DNA of 32,000 nt from Verrucomicrobiota bacterium (GCA_021294815.2 CP095464.1:660001-692000); one strand, 5' to 3'. Shown: positions 3,288 through 8,903, counted from the stretch's first letter. The notes: generated from the sequence alone by a model not told the origin. Program-made: numbers and translations.

Positions 3288-4769
3288 TCAGTGTTTTTGT
3301 GCCCACCGATAGACATCGACGTAACGTTCTGCAGACGTCTTCCATGAAAAATCCTGTTCCATCGCCTTTTGTCGCATCGCTAAAATGACCTCCGGTTGGT
3401 CGTAATAAAGCGCATTCGCTTTGCCAATGGCGTGAAAGAGGGCGGATTCCGAGAGGTCGTCAAAAAGGAAACCCGTACCGGGGTGTTTTCCGTAAGTGGT
3501 AATTGTATCGGCGAGACCTCCCGTGGCATGTGCAATCGGCAGCGTTCCGTAGCGCATCGAGTACATCTGATTGAGCCCACAGGGTTCGAATCGGCTGGGC
3601 ATCAAGAAAAAATCGCTCCCGGCCTCGATGAGATGGGCCAGCGACTCGTTGTAGCCTATATAAATAAAAGCCTGATCCTGATGGTGCCGCGCAATGTGGA
3701 TGAATTGCGATTCCAACTCGTGATCGCCACTGCCTAATAATACAAACTGTAGGCGCATTTGTCTCAAGACGCTCTCAAGGATGCGGACCAAATAGTCTAA
3801 CCCCTTTTGCTCGTAGAGACGTGCAATGACCGAAAAAATCGGAATCGCCGGATCTTCTGGAAGACGGCAGTAGTGCTGTAATTCGGCTTTGCATTGCGTT
3901 TTACCAGAAAAATCATTCCGGGAAAAGTGATGTGTAATCAAGGGGTCGTGTTCGGGAGACCAAAGCGTTTCATCAATTCCATTTCGGATTCCAATAAGGT
4001 CACCTGCACGAAACTTTAACACCGGATCGAGACCAAAACCAAAATGCGGCGTCTGGATCTCCTTCGCGTAATTTTCGCTGACGGTTGTGAGTTTGGTGGA
4101 AAAATACAGTCCCGCTTTCATCATATTGACTTGACCAAAAGCCTCGACGCCATCGGGCCGAAAAACATGGTCTGGAATGCCTAAAAACGATAAGACCGAG
4201 CGGGGCGCATAGCCGTGATGCTGAAGATTGTGAATCGTGAAGACGGAGCCACTGCGTTCGAGAGGGTGTTCACGCTCAACAGTATCAAGCAGCACCGAGA
4301 GGAGTCCCGCGGTCCAATCGTGCCCATGAAAAATATCTGGGATCCAGTTGAGGTAGTAGCAGAGATCGATCGCCGCGCGCGCAAGAAACGCAAAGCGCTC
4401 ATGATTATCGTCAAAATCTCCATACCGGTCCGCGTAAATGCCGTTGCGGTTGAAATAGCGGTCGAACTCCAAAAAATAAACGGATAAATTGTCTTTTTTG
4501 AGTTCCCAAATTTTGGCGAATTCGATCCCGTAGCCCATATTGACAATCATCGGCTGGGGATGTTCAATCACCGACGATGGCAGCGAAAATGTGGAATATT
4601 TGGGCAAAACCACCTTAACCTCATGTCCCAGTTGTGCGACATAACGCGAAAGCGATGCAACACAATCGCCCAAACCTCCAACCTTTGCAAACGGTGTATA
4701 CTCCGGCGTTAGCATGCAAATTTTGAGTGGTTGTATGGAATCTGCCGATTTTGAAGCCCTCGCTTTCAT
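3288..4769 (-). CDS. glgA: Glycogen synthase (ADP-glucose type starch/glycogen synthase)
   Basis: KICMLTPEYTPFAKVGGLGDCVASLSRYVAQLGHEVKVVLPKY is the GlgA N-terminal K-x-G-G-L signature. The C-terminal FLMPSRFEPCGLNQMYSMRYGTLPIAHATGGLADT is also typical. I moved the start to ATG 4769 (MKARASKS...) because the 51-aa upstream extension in the ORF track looks non-coding. Confidence 0.93.
   Translation of the reverse strand: MKARASKSADSIQPLKICMLTPEYTPFAKVGGLGDCVASLSRYVAQLGHEVKVVLPKYSTFSLPSSVIEHPQPMIVNMGYGIEFAKIWELKKDNLSVYFLEFDRYFNRNGIYADRYGDFDDNHERFAFLARAAIDLCYYLNWIPDIFHGHDWTAGLLSVLLDTVEREHPLERSGSVFTIHNLQHHGYAPRSVLSFLGIPDHVFRPDGVEAFGQVNMMKAGLYFSTKLTTVSENYAKEIQTPHFGFGLDPVLKFRAGDLIGIRNGIDETLWSPEHDPLITHHFSRNDFSGKTQCKAELQHYCRLPEDPAIPIFSVIARLYEQKGLDYLVRILESVLRQMRLQFVLLGSGDHELESQFIHIARHHQDQAFIYIGYNESLAHLIEAGSDFFLMPSRFEPCGLNQMYSMRYGTLPIAHATGGLADTITTYGKHPGTGFLFDDLSESALFHAIGKANALYYDQPEVILAMRQKAMEQDFSWKTSAERYVDVYRWAQKH
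4648..4730. repeat. Direct repeat copy 1 (inside the intact glgA 5' end)
   Basis: 83 nt align without gaps to 8535..8617, with 9 mismatches by my manual count. Confidence 0.85.
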
Positions 4770-4884
4770 CTCTAAAGTGAAAAACATTATGGTAAAAAGT
4801 ATCTCAAATGCAAGAGAGCCCCGAGTTACATATGTTCTGAAAAATTCTTGACAGTAGTTTAAATATATCAACCAAGATGCGGCC

Positions 4885-6372
4885 ATGAATCTAAAAAGGT
4901 ATTCTAAGAATAAGTTGAGCACTTTGTTTTGTTCTACGGCGGTTTTGCTGAGTGGTTTTGTTCAAACTTTTGGAGCAACAGAAGTCATGATCAATCCTCC
5001 TAACTCTTCCGAGTGTCAAGATAAACGGTATGCTCCAGTAAAACGGTACATCATTGATACGGGAAATCGGGAGGACTTAGGATTGCAGTCTGCGTGCGGT
5101 TTTTATTCGCTAGAAGCAGCATTGCAAATAGCCTTAAACCCAAAAGAAAAATTTCTAACAATTCAAAGGGGACCGATTATTGATTGGTATCAACAGTACG
5201 CAAAAATTCTCGAGGAATATTTCCCTATTATAAGGAGTGTTGTTTCTCCCTCGTTTAAGATAGATGGGAAATTTTTTACTGATTTTTATAATCTGTCGAA
5301 TTTTGACACGCTGGAAAGGGTTGCCCAGTTTGCAACGGGAAATTTGAATGCAAGCTGGAGGGAAAGTTTAAAGGGGCGCCCTGATAACACTTCAGAAGAT
5401 GAAGATTATGAGGAAAAATTCTGCAAACTTGCTAAACTCTATTATGGTAATCGGAGCCCCTCAGAGGATTATTTGGAGTTTAGACAGATTTTATTTGCGC
5501 AATGGATAATGCTAGTAATTGGTGAATGTCCGTGGCTAGATATCGAAGAAAAGGATTCGGAAAACTTGGAGTTAATGAGTTCAAAATGGAACGATCACTG
5601 CGGGGGAAAGCGTTGTGATATGCAAGTACAAGAACGTATGTACCGCGAAGGAGTTCAACTGGTGAAAAATTGTGATTTTGGTATTTGCTCCTGGAGTTAT
5701 TTTTTCACGGGAATGGTGCAGGTAGCATCATGTGGGAATGAGATGCTTTGCGATAAGTTTACGATTAATATATTTTCTTTGGAGCCTAATGAGCGTGAAG
5801 TACGTTTTGTGAGGAGTTTCTTTGATTCTTTAGACAGAGAAGGGAATAAAAAGCTTAGCATTAACATAGCGTTCAGTTCTGAACATGCAGAGTGCTTAAC
5901 TCCAGATGACCGGTTGCGCTGGGTAACTTACAATGATGTATACACGAATTCTCAATATGAAGAATTGACTCAGGATATGAATCGATGGGAGAACCTTCGT
6001 CTATCATTACTTGAAGCAGAGCGGTGGCAAGATACAATTCAAGCGAAGAAGTTTGATTTGCGTCTCAATGAATTCTTAACTCAAATGCGGGCAAAACAGC
6101 CTATAGTGAATTCTGTAGTTGTTGCCCCAAATCCTGTACTGATAGTGACAGCAAAAGACGTAAACATTCAAAAGGATTTTCCGAGATATCTCACAGTAGA
6201 TGATATTCCTCAAAGATGGAGGAAGAACAAGTCATCCCACATACCGGGTACGCTTAGTAATGAGGAAAAGGGGTTTCATGACAAACTTGTATGCATAAAA
6301 ATATACGAAGACTATTTTTCACTATTATCCAGGATGATGGATGCGGCAAAACTAAGAGAACGAGTCAAGTAG
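4885..6372 (+). CDS. Secreted hypothetical protein, paralog A of a Cys...His family (possible papain/USP-like cysteine peptidase)
   Basis: 495 aa with an N-terminal signal-like segment (LSTLFCSTAVLLSGFVQTFGA). It is clearly homologous to 6703..8343 through shared blocks: KRYII, ACGFYSL, ALNP, VSPSF, GNLN, SKWND, KFTINIF, SFFDSL, LTPDDRLRWVTY, QDMNRW, PVLIV and EDYFSLL. Confidence 0.85.
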   Translation: MNLKRYSKNKLSTLFCSTAVLLSGFVQTFGATEVMINPPNSSECQDKRYAPVKRYIIDTGNREDLGLQSACGFYSLEAALQIALNPKEKFLTIQRGPIIDWYQQYAKILEEYFPIIRSVVSPSFKIDGKFFTDFYNLSNFDTLERVAQFATGNLNASWRESLKGRPDNTSEDEDYEEKFCKLAKLYYGNRSPSEDYLEFRQILFAQWIMLVIGECPWLDIEEKDSENLELMSSKWNDHCGGKRCDMQVQERMYREGVQLVKNCDFGICSWSYFFTGMVQVASCGNEMLCDKFTINIFSLEPNEREVRFVRSFFDSLDREGNKKLSINIAFSSEHAECLTPDDRLRWVTYNDVYTNSQYEELTQDMNRWENLRLSLLEAERWQDTIQAKKFDLRLNEFLTQMRAKQPIVNSVVVAPNPVLIVTAKDVNIQKDFPRYLTVDDIPQRWRKNKSSHIPGTLSNEEKGFHDKLVCIKIYEDYFSLLSRMMDAAKLRERVK

Positions 6373-6702
6373 TCTGGGAATTGAGCTTCCAAAGTTACTG
6401 ACAGGTGGACATTTATCATAACACAAGTGAGGACAGTGTTTTACTGGGCCTGTTTTGGATATCCGATGATCCAGTAGTTGAACAGGTAGTGGCTGTTGCT
6501 CTATTGAGGTGGAGATTTTAGACTGAAAGTTTCGGTTTATGGAATTTGATTGAGTTGCATCAGTAGAGTTCCGCCTTGGGAAAGGTGGGATTTTGATGAT
6601 GTTGCCATTTTTAAGATTAGCGACGATATTTTTGGATTTTTGTAGTTTGCGTGATACAAAAAACAATCTTGACAATGGAAAAGATATAGGTGACAACGGG
6701 GC

Positions 6703-8417: not shown

Positions 8418-8494
8418 GTCATTGGCAACGGGGGTTGATGTTGGATTTTAGGTAAAAAGTTGTAGTCTGATTCATGAGGGCTTTTATATAGGCA

Positions 8495-8653
8495 TCATAA
8501 TTGCGGGCGCTCTATGCTATGATTGCGCTGACGTGAAAGCGACGCAACACAATCACCCAAACCTCCGACCTTCGCAAACGGCGCATACTCCGGCGTTAGC
8601 ATGCAAATTTTTAATGGTATCTTCGCTTTCGGGGCATCTTTTTCCGTCCTCAT
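8495..8653 (-). pseudogene. glgA: Truncated glgA 5' fragment (first ~40 codons only)
   Basis: It translates to MRTEKDAPKAKIPLKICMLTPEYAPFAKVGGLGDCVASLSR, near-identical to the GlgA N-terminus at 3288..4769. It then diverges and stops (QRNHSIERPQL*). Confidence 0.85.
8535..8617. repeat. Direct repeat copy 2 (glgA 5' duplicate)
   Basis: Pairs with 4648..4730 in the same orientation, ~89% identical by manual alignment. Confidence 0.85.
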
Positions 8654-8828
8654 CCTCAACAAGAACAGTAAAAGAAATGAAGAATGGATCAAGTTTTGTT
8701 CCAGGGAAGAGTTTTAGTATCAATCAGTGTTGCTATGTTGTCGTCGGGAGGGGCGAGAAATTATCCTTTGTATTTGCCGATAATGGATTGACATCGCGGG
8801 CTGGAAAATTCTACTGGGGGCGTCTCGA

Positions 8829-8903
8829 TGCCCGATAGCTCAGCGGTAGAGCAGGTGACTGTTAATCACTTGGTCGTAGGTTCGAATCCTACTCGGGCAG
8901 CCA
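8829..8903 (+). tRNA. tRNA-Asn (anticodon GTT), CCA encoded
   Basis: Manual cloverleaf: acceptor TGCCCGA/TCGGGCA, D-stem GCTC/GAGC, anticodon stem GGTGA/TCACT with loop CTGTTAA, T-stem GTAGG/CCTAC with TTCGAAT loop, then G-CCA. Confidence 0.92.

What the first reader, a model, noticed from the sequence alone, without database searches (positions are those of the whole stretch)
4648..8852. Recombination scar: duplicated glgA 5' end and duplicated tRNA 5' part around paralogs A and B
An 83-nt stretch of the intact glgA 5' coding region (4648..4730) recurs at 8535..8617 in the same orientation, with 9 mismatches. There it forms a dead 40-codon glgA stub that points toward tRNA-Asn.

Separately, 20 nt of the tRNA-Asn acceptor/D-arm (8833..8852) recur at 8398..8417 (19/20).

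The order is glgA5'-A-B-tRNA5' | glgA5'stub-tRNA(full). The divergent glgA/tRNA-Asn junction therefore appears duplicated in tandem, and one copy carries the two paralog genes.

This fits either an unequal or illegitimate crossover, or Campbell-type integration of a circular element carrying a homologous glgA segment from a diverged donor.

It dates and localises acquisition of the paralog pair without any integrase being present.
Basis: seen in the sequence. Interest (0 to 1): 0.65.

Follow-up and report, generated by a model that had tools for sequence, protein, structure and literature searches.

The report
Two locus alleles joined in tandem
The duplicated glgA start and tRNA-Asn fragment are real: two alternative versions of a variable gene slot were joined head-to-tail by an imperfect recombination, which is a known kind of event seen here in a little-studied gut-type Verrucomicrobia lineage.

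Summary
An 88-nt stretch of the glgA 5' coding region (4644-4731) recurs at 8531-8618 with 79/88 identity. A 24-nt tRNA-Asn 5' fragment (8394-8417, 21/24) lies upstream of the intact tRNA-Asn (8829-8903).

Five related genomes show that the interval between glgA codon ~13 and tRNA-Asn is a swappable slot.
- L004, the closest relative, has the empty version (glgA, 170 nt, tRNA-Asn, C).
- L080-L083 carry one A/B-family gene there.
- Homology between versions always breaks at the same nucleotide, the end of the 88-nt anchor, and resumes at the tRNA.

The window holds a filled version (A, B) cut at tRNA position 24. This is followed by 113 nt of filler, then an empty version cut at glgA codon 41.

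Eight of the nine repeat mismatches are synonymous, and the stub keeps its own start codon. The two copies therefore diverged as working genes in separate lineages, not by duplication in place.

The best fit is one homologous crossover plus one illegitimate join (HFIR-like). Which half was incoming is unresolved, so the scar does not show that A/B were the acquired part. No integrase is present. A/B and C are remote paralogs of unknown function. Interest is modest.

The parts
3288..4769 (-). Intact glgA (glycogen synthase, 493 aa)
   Evidence: Full-length Pfam Glyco_transf_5 plus Glycos_transf_1. 93% aa identity to L004 glgA.
4644..4731 (-). Anchor copy 1: conserved glgA 5' coding segment (PLKICMLTPEYTPFAKVGGLGDCVASLSR), the left homology arm of the slot
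   Evidence: Repeat D1. In every allele comparison homology ends at this position.
4732..4884 (.). Type-2 constant region: first 13 glgA codons (MKARASKSADSIQ; 4731-4769, minus strand) plus the 115-nt divergent promoter region between glgA and A
   Evidence: Unalignable with the stub and L004, but collinear with L081/L082 (83-92% in local BLAST alignments covering 83-157 nt; 79% over the whole segment in global alignment). The N-extension is conserved at protein level in L081/L082.
4885..6372 (+). Gene A (495 aa), a predicted secreted protein of the lineage-specific A/B family
   Evidence: No Pfam, PHROG or PDB hit. 31% identity to B, E 3e-74. The signal-peptide region is conserved in L081/L082. 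It is a singleton in the protein collection.
6373..6702 (.). A-B intergenic region with a diverged copy of the cassette promoter and signal-peptide region; no glgA remnant
   Evidence: Local alignment score 43 against shuffles of 25.6 +/- 3.9. tblastn with the GlgA N-terminus finds nothing here.
6703..8343 (+). Gene B (546 aa), A/B family
   Evidence: 34% identity to the 523-aa gene that sits between glgA and tRNA-Asn in L080 (E 1e-80).
8344..8393 (+). Decayed tRNA-Asn upstream (promoter-like) region
   Evidence: About 48% identity to the real tRNA-Asn upstream region. TTGGCA replaces the conserved TTGACA at the same spacing. This is weak evidence.
8394..8417 (+). tRNA-Asn 5' fragment (positions 1-24: acceptor 5' strand plus D-arm), with three C>T changes
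   Evidence: 0 expected by chance. Not called as a tRNA. It occupies the position of the intact tRNA-Asn in L080-L083, downstream of the cassette gene.
8418..8530 (.). 113-nt filler between the two illegitimate joints
   Evidence: No similarity to the window or to any fetched locus. No unusual fold. Not tRNA-like or glgA-like.
8531..8618 (-). Anchor copy 2: the core of the glgA stub
   Evidence: Repeat D1. 79/88 identity to L004. At most 2 private changes, both in one Leu codon and synonymous.
8619..8828 (.). Type-1 (empty-allele) region: stub N-extension with its ATG (8618-8653, minus strand), the native glgA/tRNA intergenic region and the tRNA-Asn promoter
   Evidence: Collinear with L004 (83.5% over 200 nt). 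The last ~70 nt before the tRNA are almost identical to L004.
8829..8903 (+). Intact tRNA-Asn (GTT), the right homology arm of the slot
   Evidence: ARAGORN. Rfam tRNA 73 bits. 100% identical in L001, L002, L004 and L080-L083.
8945..10711 (+). Gene C (588 aa), a remote paralog of A/B and itself hypervariable
   Evidence: hhalign of the A/B profile against the C profile gives 97.9%, E 4.5e-13. Only 44% aa identity to the L004 ortholog, although the flanks are 92-94% nt identical.

Best explanation
The interval between glgA codon ~13 and tRNA-Asn is a variable slot in this small Puniceicoccales/Opitutales clade. It is bounded by two strongly conserved anchors. One is the 88-nt glgA 5' core (82-90% identical among the six genomes). 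The other is tRNA-Asn with its promoter-proximal region. Alternative alleles exist: an empty type 1 and filled types 2 and 3 that carry an A/B-family secreted-protein gene. They are normally exchanged by homologous recombination in the two anchors. Each allele brings its own glgA promoter and its own first 12-14 glgA codons.

The window carries the product of one exchange that went wrong. DNA from a relative about 10% diverged paired homologously on one side only. The other end was sealed by illegitimate joining. This is homology-facilitated illegitimate recombination, or an equivalent one-sided event.

The result is a filled type-2 allele (glgA, A, B) ending in a 24-nt tRNA-Asn 5' fragment. 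Then come 113 nt of filler. Then comes an empty type-1 allele that starts at glgA codon 41 (stub, native intergenic region, intact tRNA-Asn, C).

Shown: the anatomy, the empty and filled alleles in relatives, the recurrent breakpoint, and the selection signature in both anchor copies.

Inferred: the one-sided recombination mechanism. Which half was incoming is unresolved. The favoured version has the type-2 segment with A-B, already carrying an older decayed tRNA fragment, entering an L004-like empty-allele genome. The alternative has a type-1 segment with tRNA-Asn and C entering a filled-allele genome.
For: 1. Empty site. L004 is 92-94% nt identical in both flanks and is collinear with window [..4731] + [8619..]. 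It has one anchor, a type-1 N-extension, tRNA-Asn and a C ortholog.

2. Filled single-copy alleles. L080, L081, L082 and L083 have glgA, one A/B-family gene, then tRNA-Asn. Each has one anchor and one tRNA.

3. Recurrent breakpoint. Homology between alleles stops at window 4727-4731, which corresponds to L081 9728-9732, L082 9796-9800 and L080/L083 11440. It resumes at or about 50 nt before the tRNA.

4. The window's type-2 constant region is collinear with L081/L082 at 79% identity over the whole segment (up to 92% in local blocks), similar to the adjacent glgA (75-86%). Its N-extension is conserved as protein.

5. Both anchors evolved as coding sequence. Eight of 9 differences are synonymous, and the single replacement is in the intact copy. 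The stub has at most 2 private changes, both in one Leu codon. P~0.012 for duplication in place followed by decay.

6. The joints are non-homologous. The sequence beyond tRNA position 24 and to the left of glgA codon 41 matches nothing.

7. Neither anchor copy looks like a hybrid. The differences are spread over the 88 nt, and their states (against L004 and the sister species) do not fall into a left block and a right block as a mid-anchor crossover predicts. This fits a crossover outside the 88 nt.

8. Precedent: HFIR as defined in PMC3240628, and the proposed displacement of T6SS effector modules that leaves orphan pieces downstream in PMC5361080.
Against: - No parental (donor) sequence is available. 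A and B are singletons among ~15 billion proteins, and both metagenome scans were empty. Microhomology at the joints therefore cannot be checked.
- The 113-nt filler is unexplained.
- The identity profile of glgA against L004 shows no clean donor tract.
- The 88-nt phylogeny is a star, so the direction is open.
- The tRNA fragment appears more decayed (3/24) than the stub (at most 2/88; Fisher p 0.03-0.065). This needs either an older scar carried by the incoming DNA or two separate events.
- Natural competence or another DNA-uptake route is unknown for this organism.
- Only six genomes of the clade exist in the collections.
Confidence: 0.55

Rival explanations
1. Campbell-type integration. 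A ~3.9-kb circular DNA carried anchor', N-ext2, A, B, the tRNA fragment and the 113 nt. It recombined by a single RecA-type crossover with the chromosomal 88-nt anchor of an empty-allele genome and so duplicated the anchor.
For: - The architecture is exactly what a single crossover predicts. There are direct repeats of the shared segment, and each is flanked on one side by chromosomal and on the other by foreign DNA.
- A 27-nt run of perfect identity inside the repeat could support pairing.
- glgA stays intact because the insert supplies a new 5' end. This parallels e14, which is flanked by icd on one side and the icdC fragment on the other (PMC13626634).
- The reverse reaction between the two repeats would regenerate an empty allele and such a circle.
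Against: - A crossover inside the 88 nt should leave two reciprocal hybrid copies. Instead the differences between the copies are scattered and do not sort into a left block and a right block (L004 agrees with the stub at 6 of the 7 differing sites in positions 4-54 and with the intact copy at 82 and 84; the other differences are private to the intact copy or the stub). A crossover would have to lie in the first ~3 nt of the homology.
- The insert has no replication, recombination or mobilisation gene.
- The circle junction (tRNA fragment plus 113 nt) still needs an earlier illegitimate event.
- 88 nt at 90% identity is a poor substrate.
Confidence: 0.15
2. Two steps within one lineage. First, an illegitimate tandem duplication of the whole slot (glgA codon 41 to tRNA position 24). 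Later, one copy was replaced by a different allele through ordinary homologous recombination.
For: - Tandem duplications with a novel join point (downstream site joined to upstream site) produce this topology.
- The tRNA fragment looks older than the stub, which hints at more than one event.
- Frequent allele exchange at this locus is documented.
Against: - It needs two rare events where one suffices.
- After the duplication the internal homology arms are short (an 88-nt anchor and a 24-nt tRNA fragment).
- The tRNA-fragment upstream region is unlike the window's own tRNA promoter (48%).
- The stub shows essentially no neutral decay, so the replacement would have to include the stub anchor itself.
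Confidence: 0.15
3. Site-specific integration of a genomic island at glgA/tRNA-Asn by an integrase that has since been lost. The repeats would be att sites.
For: - The site is adjacent to a tRNA and has low GC (39-41% vs ~49% in the flanks).
- A precise empty site exists in L004.
- A phage-derived gene cluster lies 2 kb to the right.
Against: - There is no integrase or recombinase domain in the insert or among the 28 larger ORFs tested with Pfam.
- The duplicated tRNA piece is the 5' part and lies upstream of the gene, with the stub in between. This is not the 3'-end duplication typical of tRNA-targeting integrases (my own knowledge of tRNA att-site organisation).
- The 88-nt repeats differ at 9 scattered sites and share no identical core next to either junction.
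- The phage-like cluster is also present in the empty-site genome.
Confidence: 0.05
4. Assembly artefact: a chimeric contig that strings together the alleles of two co-occurring strains.
For: - The relatives are all metagenome-derived.
- Two alleles of one locus in tandem is what a mis-traversed strain bubble could resemble.
- The source reads could not be inspected.
Against: - The contig is 878 kb long.
- The two joints lie in unique sequence (a decayed tRNA fragment with 3 mismatches, then 113 nt found nowhere else). They do not lie in shared k-mers.
- The two anchor copies share at most a 27-nt identical run.
Confidence: 0.05

Closest known systems
Homology-facilitated illegitimate recombination (HFIR), described for naturally transformable bacteria and for E. 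coli conjugation (PMC3240628; de Vries & Wackernagel 2002 and Prudhomme et al. 2002 as cited in PMC5361080)
   Same: One end of the incoming DNA is anchored by homology (glgA). The other is joined at a non-homologous site. Foreign genes are trapped next to a conserved gene. No integrase is needed.
   Different: Here the illegitimate joint lies upstream of the end of homology. The anchor is therefore duplicated rather than recipient DNA simply being deleted. A 113-nt filler sits at the joint. Donor, recipient and uptake route are unknown, and nothing was shown experimentally.
Sequential displacement of T6SS effector-immunity modules in Vibrio cholerae, and orphan arrays at Rhs/CDI loci (PMC5361080)
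   Same: There is a conserved 5' region with a variable remainder. Alleles are swapped between strains. An occasional aberrant insertion pushes the previous module downstream and leaves orphaned pieces. In the window the orphaned piece is the old glgA 5' end with its promoter.
   Different: There is no evidence that A/B/C are toxins or have immunity partners. The left anchor is a housekeeping biosynthetic gene whose own promoter and first codons travel with the cassette. The right anchor is a tRNA gene.
e14 prophage in the E. coli icd gene, with the icdC fragment pseudogene (PMC13626634; Hill et al. 1989 as cited there)
   Same: The insert sits inside a protein-coding gene and is flanked by two copies of that gene's terminal segment, so the gene stays whole and a fragment pseudogene lies at the far end of the insert. 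Recombination between the two copies (excision) leaves a single chimeric gene.
   Different: e14 is a prophage with site-specific excision and targets the 3' end of icd. Here the 5' end (start codon and promoter) is replaced, no recombinase is present, and the insert is 3.8 kb with two genes of unknown function.
tRNA-linked genomic islands
   Same: A variable, low-GC gene block lies next to a tRNA gene and is present or absent among close relatives.
   Different: There is no integrase and no duplication of the tRNA 3' end. The variable block lies upstream of the tRNA. It is exchanged by homologous recombination between flanking anchors.

Membership tests
HFIR-type one-sided recombination product | Continuous homology to related genomes on one side of the foreign segment | tested here: met
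   glgA and everything to its left align with L004 (91.6%) and with L080-L083 up to 4727-4731. To the right of the stub, homology to L004 is continuous.
HFIR-type one-sided recombination product | The other end is joined at a site without homology, usually at a 3-10-nt microhomology | tested here: inconclusive
   The joints at 8417/8418 and 8530/8531 are non-homologous and are separated by a 113-nt filler. Microhomology cannot be scored without the parental sequences.
HFIR-type one-sided recombination product | The two homologous segments derive from different lineages | tested here: met
   Eight of 9 differences are synonymous. P~0.012 for decay in place. The N-extensions and upstream regions differ.
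HFIR-type one-sided recombination product | A DNA uptake route exists in the host (competence, conjugation or transduction) | not testable with these tools
   Only a prepilin-type gene (2513-3316) and a phage-like cluster are visible. Neither shows DNA uptake.
Campbell-type (single-crossover) integration | Direct repeats of the shared segment bracket the insert | tested here: met
   88-nt repeats at 4644-4731 and 8531-8618.
Campbell-type (single-crossover) integration | The two repeat copies are reciprocal hybrids of the chromosomal and element sequences | tested here: inconclusive
   Site patterns show no switch point within the 88 nt. However, only proxies (L004 and the sister species) are available and only 15 sites vary.
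Integrase-mediated tRNA-targeting island or prophage | A tyrosine or serine recombinase gene within or next to the element | tested here: not met
   No recombinase domain in A or B, nor in the other 26 larger ORFs of the window that were scanned with Pfam.
Integrase-mediated tRNA-targeting island or prophage | att repeats with an identical core, derived from the 3' part of the tRNA and bracketing the element | tested here: not met
   The tRNA fragment is positions 1-24 (the 5' part). It lies upstream of the gene and does not bracket A-B. The 88-nt repeats differ at 9 scattered sites.
Tandem duplication in place | Both copies descend from the same genome, so the non-functional copy should carry unselected changes | tested here: not met
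   The stub has no replacement change or frameshift and keeps its ATG. The flanks of the two copies belong to different allele types.
Constant-5'/variable-3' cassette loci with orphan fragments (Rhs/CDI/T6SS-like) | A conserved 5' region is followed by unrelated sequence among close strains | tested here: met
   L081 and L082 (95% identical flanks) share N-ext2, the intergenic region and the signal peptide, then diverge completely until the tRNA. The window's A shares the same 5' region.
Constant-5'/variable-3' cassette loci with orphan fragments (Rhs/CDI/T6SS-like) | The variable part is a toxin domain with a cognate immunity gene | tested here: not met
   No Pfam, PHROG or PDB match. No small downstream partner gene. 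The AF2 model is uninformative (pLDDT 41.6).

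The most novel reading that the evidence does not exclude
The glgA-5'/tRNA-Asn interval, and the C slot on the other side of the tRNA, may form a dedicated diversification locus. It would hold cassettes encoding a lineage-restricted family of secreted proteins with an invariant Cys and His. 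Only about nine members were found among ~1.8 billion representative proteins, and all of them lie at this one locus. The cassettes would be shuffled among strains and sister species on two ultra-conserved anchors. Each left-hand cassette would rewire glycogen synthase by supplying its promoter and first 12-14 codons. The adjacent Mu-like particle gene cluster, syntenic in all four genomes of this clade whose contigs reach that far, could be the vehicle (GTA-like) or a functional partner of these variable proteins.
Probability: 0.15. Interest if true: 0.6.

Novelty: new member of a known kind. Interest (0 to 1): 0.38.

Why it matters
The scar is a clean natural example of integrase-free gene gain, or allele stacking, by one-sided recombination in an uncultured Verrucomicrobia lineage. 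Both the empty and the filled parental-type alleles are preserved in relatives.

More useful than the scar is what it exposed. There is a recombination hotspot with a nucleotide-precise boundary inside the coding region of a housekeeping gene. As a result, the promoter and N-terminus of glycogen synthase are exchanged together with a hypervariable secreted-protein gene. If the variable proteins turn out to be host- or phage-interaction factors, the locus would be a handle on strain-level diversification in these gut-associated bacteria.

In itself, the mechanism is already known from other systems.

Tried and rejected
- Exact look-ups of the window's own glgA, A and B found nothing on record, so the source could not be identified.
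- Both metagenome scans returned nothing: the A/B profile and a 41-nt tRNA-upstream pattern. That collection is now exhausted.
- A word-based protein search with A found only A itself.
- The identity profile of window glgA against L004 showed no donor tract, only a 97-98% block at 3941-4240.
- The phylogeny of the 88-nt copies is a star. In 2000 bootstrap resamples, stub+L004 was the closest pair in 838 and intact+stub in 818. It gives no direction.
- The apparent 'high' identity of the type-2 constant region to L081/L082 (83-92% in local BLAST blocks) first suggested a recent cross-species import. Segment-wise global comparison (79%) showed it is no higher than the adjacent glgA, so I rejected that reading.
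- Rfam and folding of the tRNA fragment and the 113-nt filler showed nothing.
- A search for a glgA remnant between A and B, which would mark an earlier displacement, found none.
- The AF2 model of B from a 5-sequence alignment was too poor for a fold search (pLDDT 41.6). The PDB profile search and PHROGs were empty.
- The promoter/terminator scan gave counts no different from shuffles.

Full report
**Observation**

The window has one long internal repeat. It spans 4644-4731 and 8531-8618, in direct orientation, 88 nt with 79 identities.

Copy 1 is the 5' coding region of an intact glycogen synthase gene (glgA, 3288-4769, minus strand). The gene has full-length Glyco_transf_5 and Glycos_transf_1 Pfam domains.

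Copy 2 is in frame with its own ATG (8651-8653). It encodes MRTEKDAPKAKI-PLKICMLTPEYAPFAKVGGLGDCVASLSR and then runs into unrelated sequence.

tRNA-Asn(GTT) lies at 8829-8903. The reported 20-nt match (8398-8417) is real. It extends to tRNA positions 1-24 (8394-8417, 21/24, all differences C>T), with none expected by chance. Neither ARAGORN nor Rfam calls it a tRNA.

Genes A (4885-6372) and B (6703-8343) lie between glgA and the fragment. C (8945-10711) follows the tRNA. A Mu-like phage head module starts at 11.3 kb. The block 4.8-10.8 kb is about 40% GC against about 49% around it.

**Relatives**

A scan of one genome per species with GlgA returned Puniceicoccales/Opitutales MAGs. The 90% protein cluster of this GlgA holds only six sequences: the window's own and five others. 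Their contigs were fetched as L004 (also held as L084-L086), L080, L081, L082 and L083.

L004 is the close relative. It is 91.6% nt identical over glgA and the neighbouring gene, and 94.3% over the phage-like region. L080-L083 form a sister species. They are 95-97% identical to each other and 72-77% to the window.

L004 is the empty site. It is collinear with window [..4731] joined to [8619..]. It has one anchor, an N-terminal extension of the stub's type (MRKKRDAPQAPV), about 170 nt of intergenic sequence, tRNA-Asn, a C ortholog and then the terminase. More distant genomes (L001 and L002, 66% GlgA identity) also have glgA and tRNA-Asn as divergent neighbours.

L080-L083 each have exactly one A/B-family gene between glgA and tRNA-Asn (523, 562, 560 and 525 aa). 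Each has one anchor and one tRNA. None of the five relatives has a stub or a tRNA fragment.

**A slot with fixed boundaries**

Among L080-L083 the flanks are 95-97% identical, but the gene between the anchors differs.
- L081 and L082 lose homology to L080/L083 at L081 9728, L082 9796 and L080/L083 11440.
- These are the same nucleotide position as window 4727-4731.
- They regain homology about 50 nt before the tRNA, or at it.

L081 and L082 share with each other, and with the window's intact copy, three features. These are the N-terminal extension of GlgA (MKARASKS[A/T][D/N]SI[Q/R]), the 115-nt divergent promoter region, and the signal-peptide codons of the cassette gene. Beyond those they diverge completely.

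Three allele types can therefore be defined by what follows the anchor:
- type 1, empty: L004 and the stub;
- type 2: the window's intact copy, L081 and L082;
- type 3: L080 and L083.

The first 12-14 codons of glgA and its promoter belong to the exchangeable part.

Segment by segment in global alignments, the window's type-2 constant region is about 79% identical to L081/L082 (local BLAST blocks reach 83-92%). The adjacent glgA sequence is 75-86% identical. I therefore read the type-2 arrangement as old and shared, not as a recent cross-species import.

**The two anchor copies diverged as working genes**

Of the nine differences, eight are synonymous. The single replacement (Thr for Ala) is in the intact copy.

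With the sister species as outgroup, the stub has at most two private changes. Both are in one Leu codon (CTC to TTA) and both are synonymous.

Suppose instead that the stub arose by duplication in place and then drifted while the intact copy stayed under selection. In that case about half of the differences should be replacements. The probability of at most one in nine is about 0.012. The stub also keeps its start codon and reading frame.

So the two copies come from two lineages about 10% apart, which is the same order as the window-L004 distance in glgA. The stub has been dead only briefly.

The 88-nt tree of intact copy, stub and L004 is a star. It does not say which copy is resident.

**The joints**

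To the right of tRNA position 24 (8417) and to the left of glgA codon 41 (8531) the sequence matches neither the tRNA nor glgA. The 113 nt in between match nothing in the window or in any fetched locus, and they fold no better than shuffles.

The 50 nt before the fragment look like a decayed tRNA-Asn promoter region. They have TTGGCA where all real copies have TTGACA, at the same spacing, and about 48% identity.

The fragment sits where the intact tRNA-Asn sits in L080-L083, namely downstream of the cassette gene.

The fragment has 3 changes in 24 nt of a sequence that is otherwise 100% conserved in all eight related loci in which this tRNA-Asn was found. The stub has at most 2 in 88 (Fisher p 0.03-0.065). 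The fragment may therefore be older than the stub.

**Mechanism**

The structure is a filled type-2 allele truncated in its right anchor. It is followed by filler and then by an empty type-1 allele truncated in its left anchor.

The simplest route is a single inter-lineage recombination that was homologous on one side and illegitimate on the other. That is the HFIR pattern (definition in PMC3240628). The same mechanism was proposed for the displacement of T6SS effector modules that leaves orphan pieces downstream in Vibrio cholerae, and for Rhs/CDI orphan arrays (PMC5361080).

Two directions fit the data.
- (a) An L004-like empty-allele recipient received a type-2 segment. The crossover was in or to the left of glgA. 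The right end already carried an old tRNA fragment and was joined at recipient codon 41.
- (b) A filled-allele recipient received a type-1 segment with tRNA-Asn and C. The right crossover was in the tRNA, C or phage region. The left end was joined inside the resident tRNA.

I lean to (a), for two reasons. The closest relative carries the empty allele, and the fragment looks older than the stub. Neither argument is strong.

A Campbell-type single crossover of a 3.9-kb circle gives the same map and keeps glgA whole. This parallels e14, which is flanked by icd on one side and the icdC fragment on the other (PMC13626634). However, a crossover within the 88 nt should leave reciprocal hybrids, and the site patterns show no switch point.

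Four other routes are less likely. The rival entries give the reasons.
- An integrase-mediated island.
- An unequal crossover within one genome.
- A two-step route (duplication, then replacement of one copy).
- An assembly chimera.

**The genes**

A and B are 31-35% identical.

A profile of A+B searched against 1.84 billion representative proteins found only A, B and three others. All three lie at this same position next to glgA in L080-L082. A and B themselves are singletons in the collection.

C and its orthologs form a second family at the other side of the tRNA. They are also hypervariable: 44% aa identity between the window and L004 despite 92-94% flanks.

Pairwise, C barely resembles A/B. 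Profile against profile, the relationship is clear (97.9%, E 4.5e-13). HMM searches of the other fetched loci find neither family outside this clade.

All members have an N-terminal hydrophobic leader (my reading of the sequences). The A/B family shares an invariant Cys and His (A C71 and H334).

There is no Pfam, PHROG or PDB match, and the AlphaFold model was too poor to use. Function is unknown.

**Verdict**

The claim that the scar dates and localises the acquisition of A and B is not established. The slot normally holds such a gene in relatives, the direction of transfer is open, and the repeat divergence reflects allele age.

The event is an instance of a known process. The locus it reveals is the more interesting part: a nucleotide-precise recombination boundary inside glgA, with the promoter and first codons of glgA travelling with a hypervariable secreted-protein gene.

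Noticed in passing
window 11319-21857; also L004 1-5235, L082 14324-21683, L083 1-5581, L002 4070-5455: A Mu-like head module lies just right of tRNA-Asn and C in the four genomes of this clade whose contigs reach that far (window, L004, L082, L083). It comprises terminase, Portal_Mu, Mu gpI-like protease/scaffold, cement protein, a capsid-like protein, and then ORFs with no matches. A related terminase also lies near tRNA-Asn in the more distant L002. No integrase, transposase or lysis gene was seen among the ORFs tested. It could be a domesticated phage or a GTA-like cluster.
   Followed up: partly
window 8945-10711 vs L004 5324-6976: Gene C is only 44% aa identical to its L004 ortholog, while the flanking DNA is 92-94% identical. 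The first ~320 nt are conserved (75-83%) and the rest is unalignable. This looks like a second variable slot, on the right side of the tRNA.
   Followed up: partly
window 4731-4769 and 8618-8653; L004, L080-L083 glgA starts: GlgA has three unrelated 12-14-residue N-terminal extensions before the conserved LKIC motif, one per allele type. Type 2 is conserved as protein across species, with synonymous changes, so it is probably translated. The glgA promoter is therefore exchanged together with the neighbouring cassette.
   Followed up: partly
window 3941-4240: A ~300-nt block inside glgA is 97-98% identical to L004, against about 90% on both sides. This suggests a separate, recent homologous exchange between the two lineages.
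   Followed up: no
window 24987-29395 (minus strand); repeats 26437-26487 and 27822-27860: Three tandem Ser/Thr protein-kinase-domain genes (471, 363 and 511 aa) are separated by AT-rich intergenic regions that share a 39-nt repeat.
   Followed up: no
window 24861-24934 and 24170-24892: tRNA-Gln(TTG) on the minus strand overlaps the 5' end of the longest ORF call for an ABC-transporter ATPase. The true start of that gene must lie further downstream.
   Followed up: no
window 8355-8361 and 8422-8428: The heptamer TTGGCAA occurs both at the decayed -35 position upstream of the tRNA fragment and 5 nt after the fragment's end. This may be chance or a microhomology used in the older truncation.
   Followed up: no
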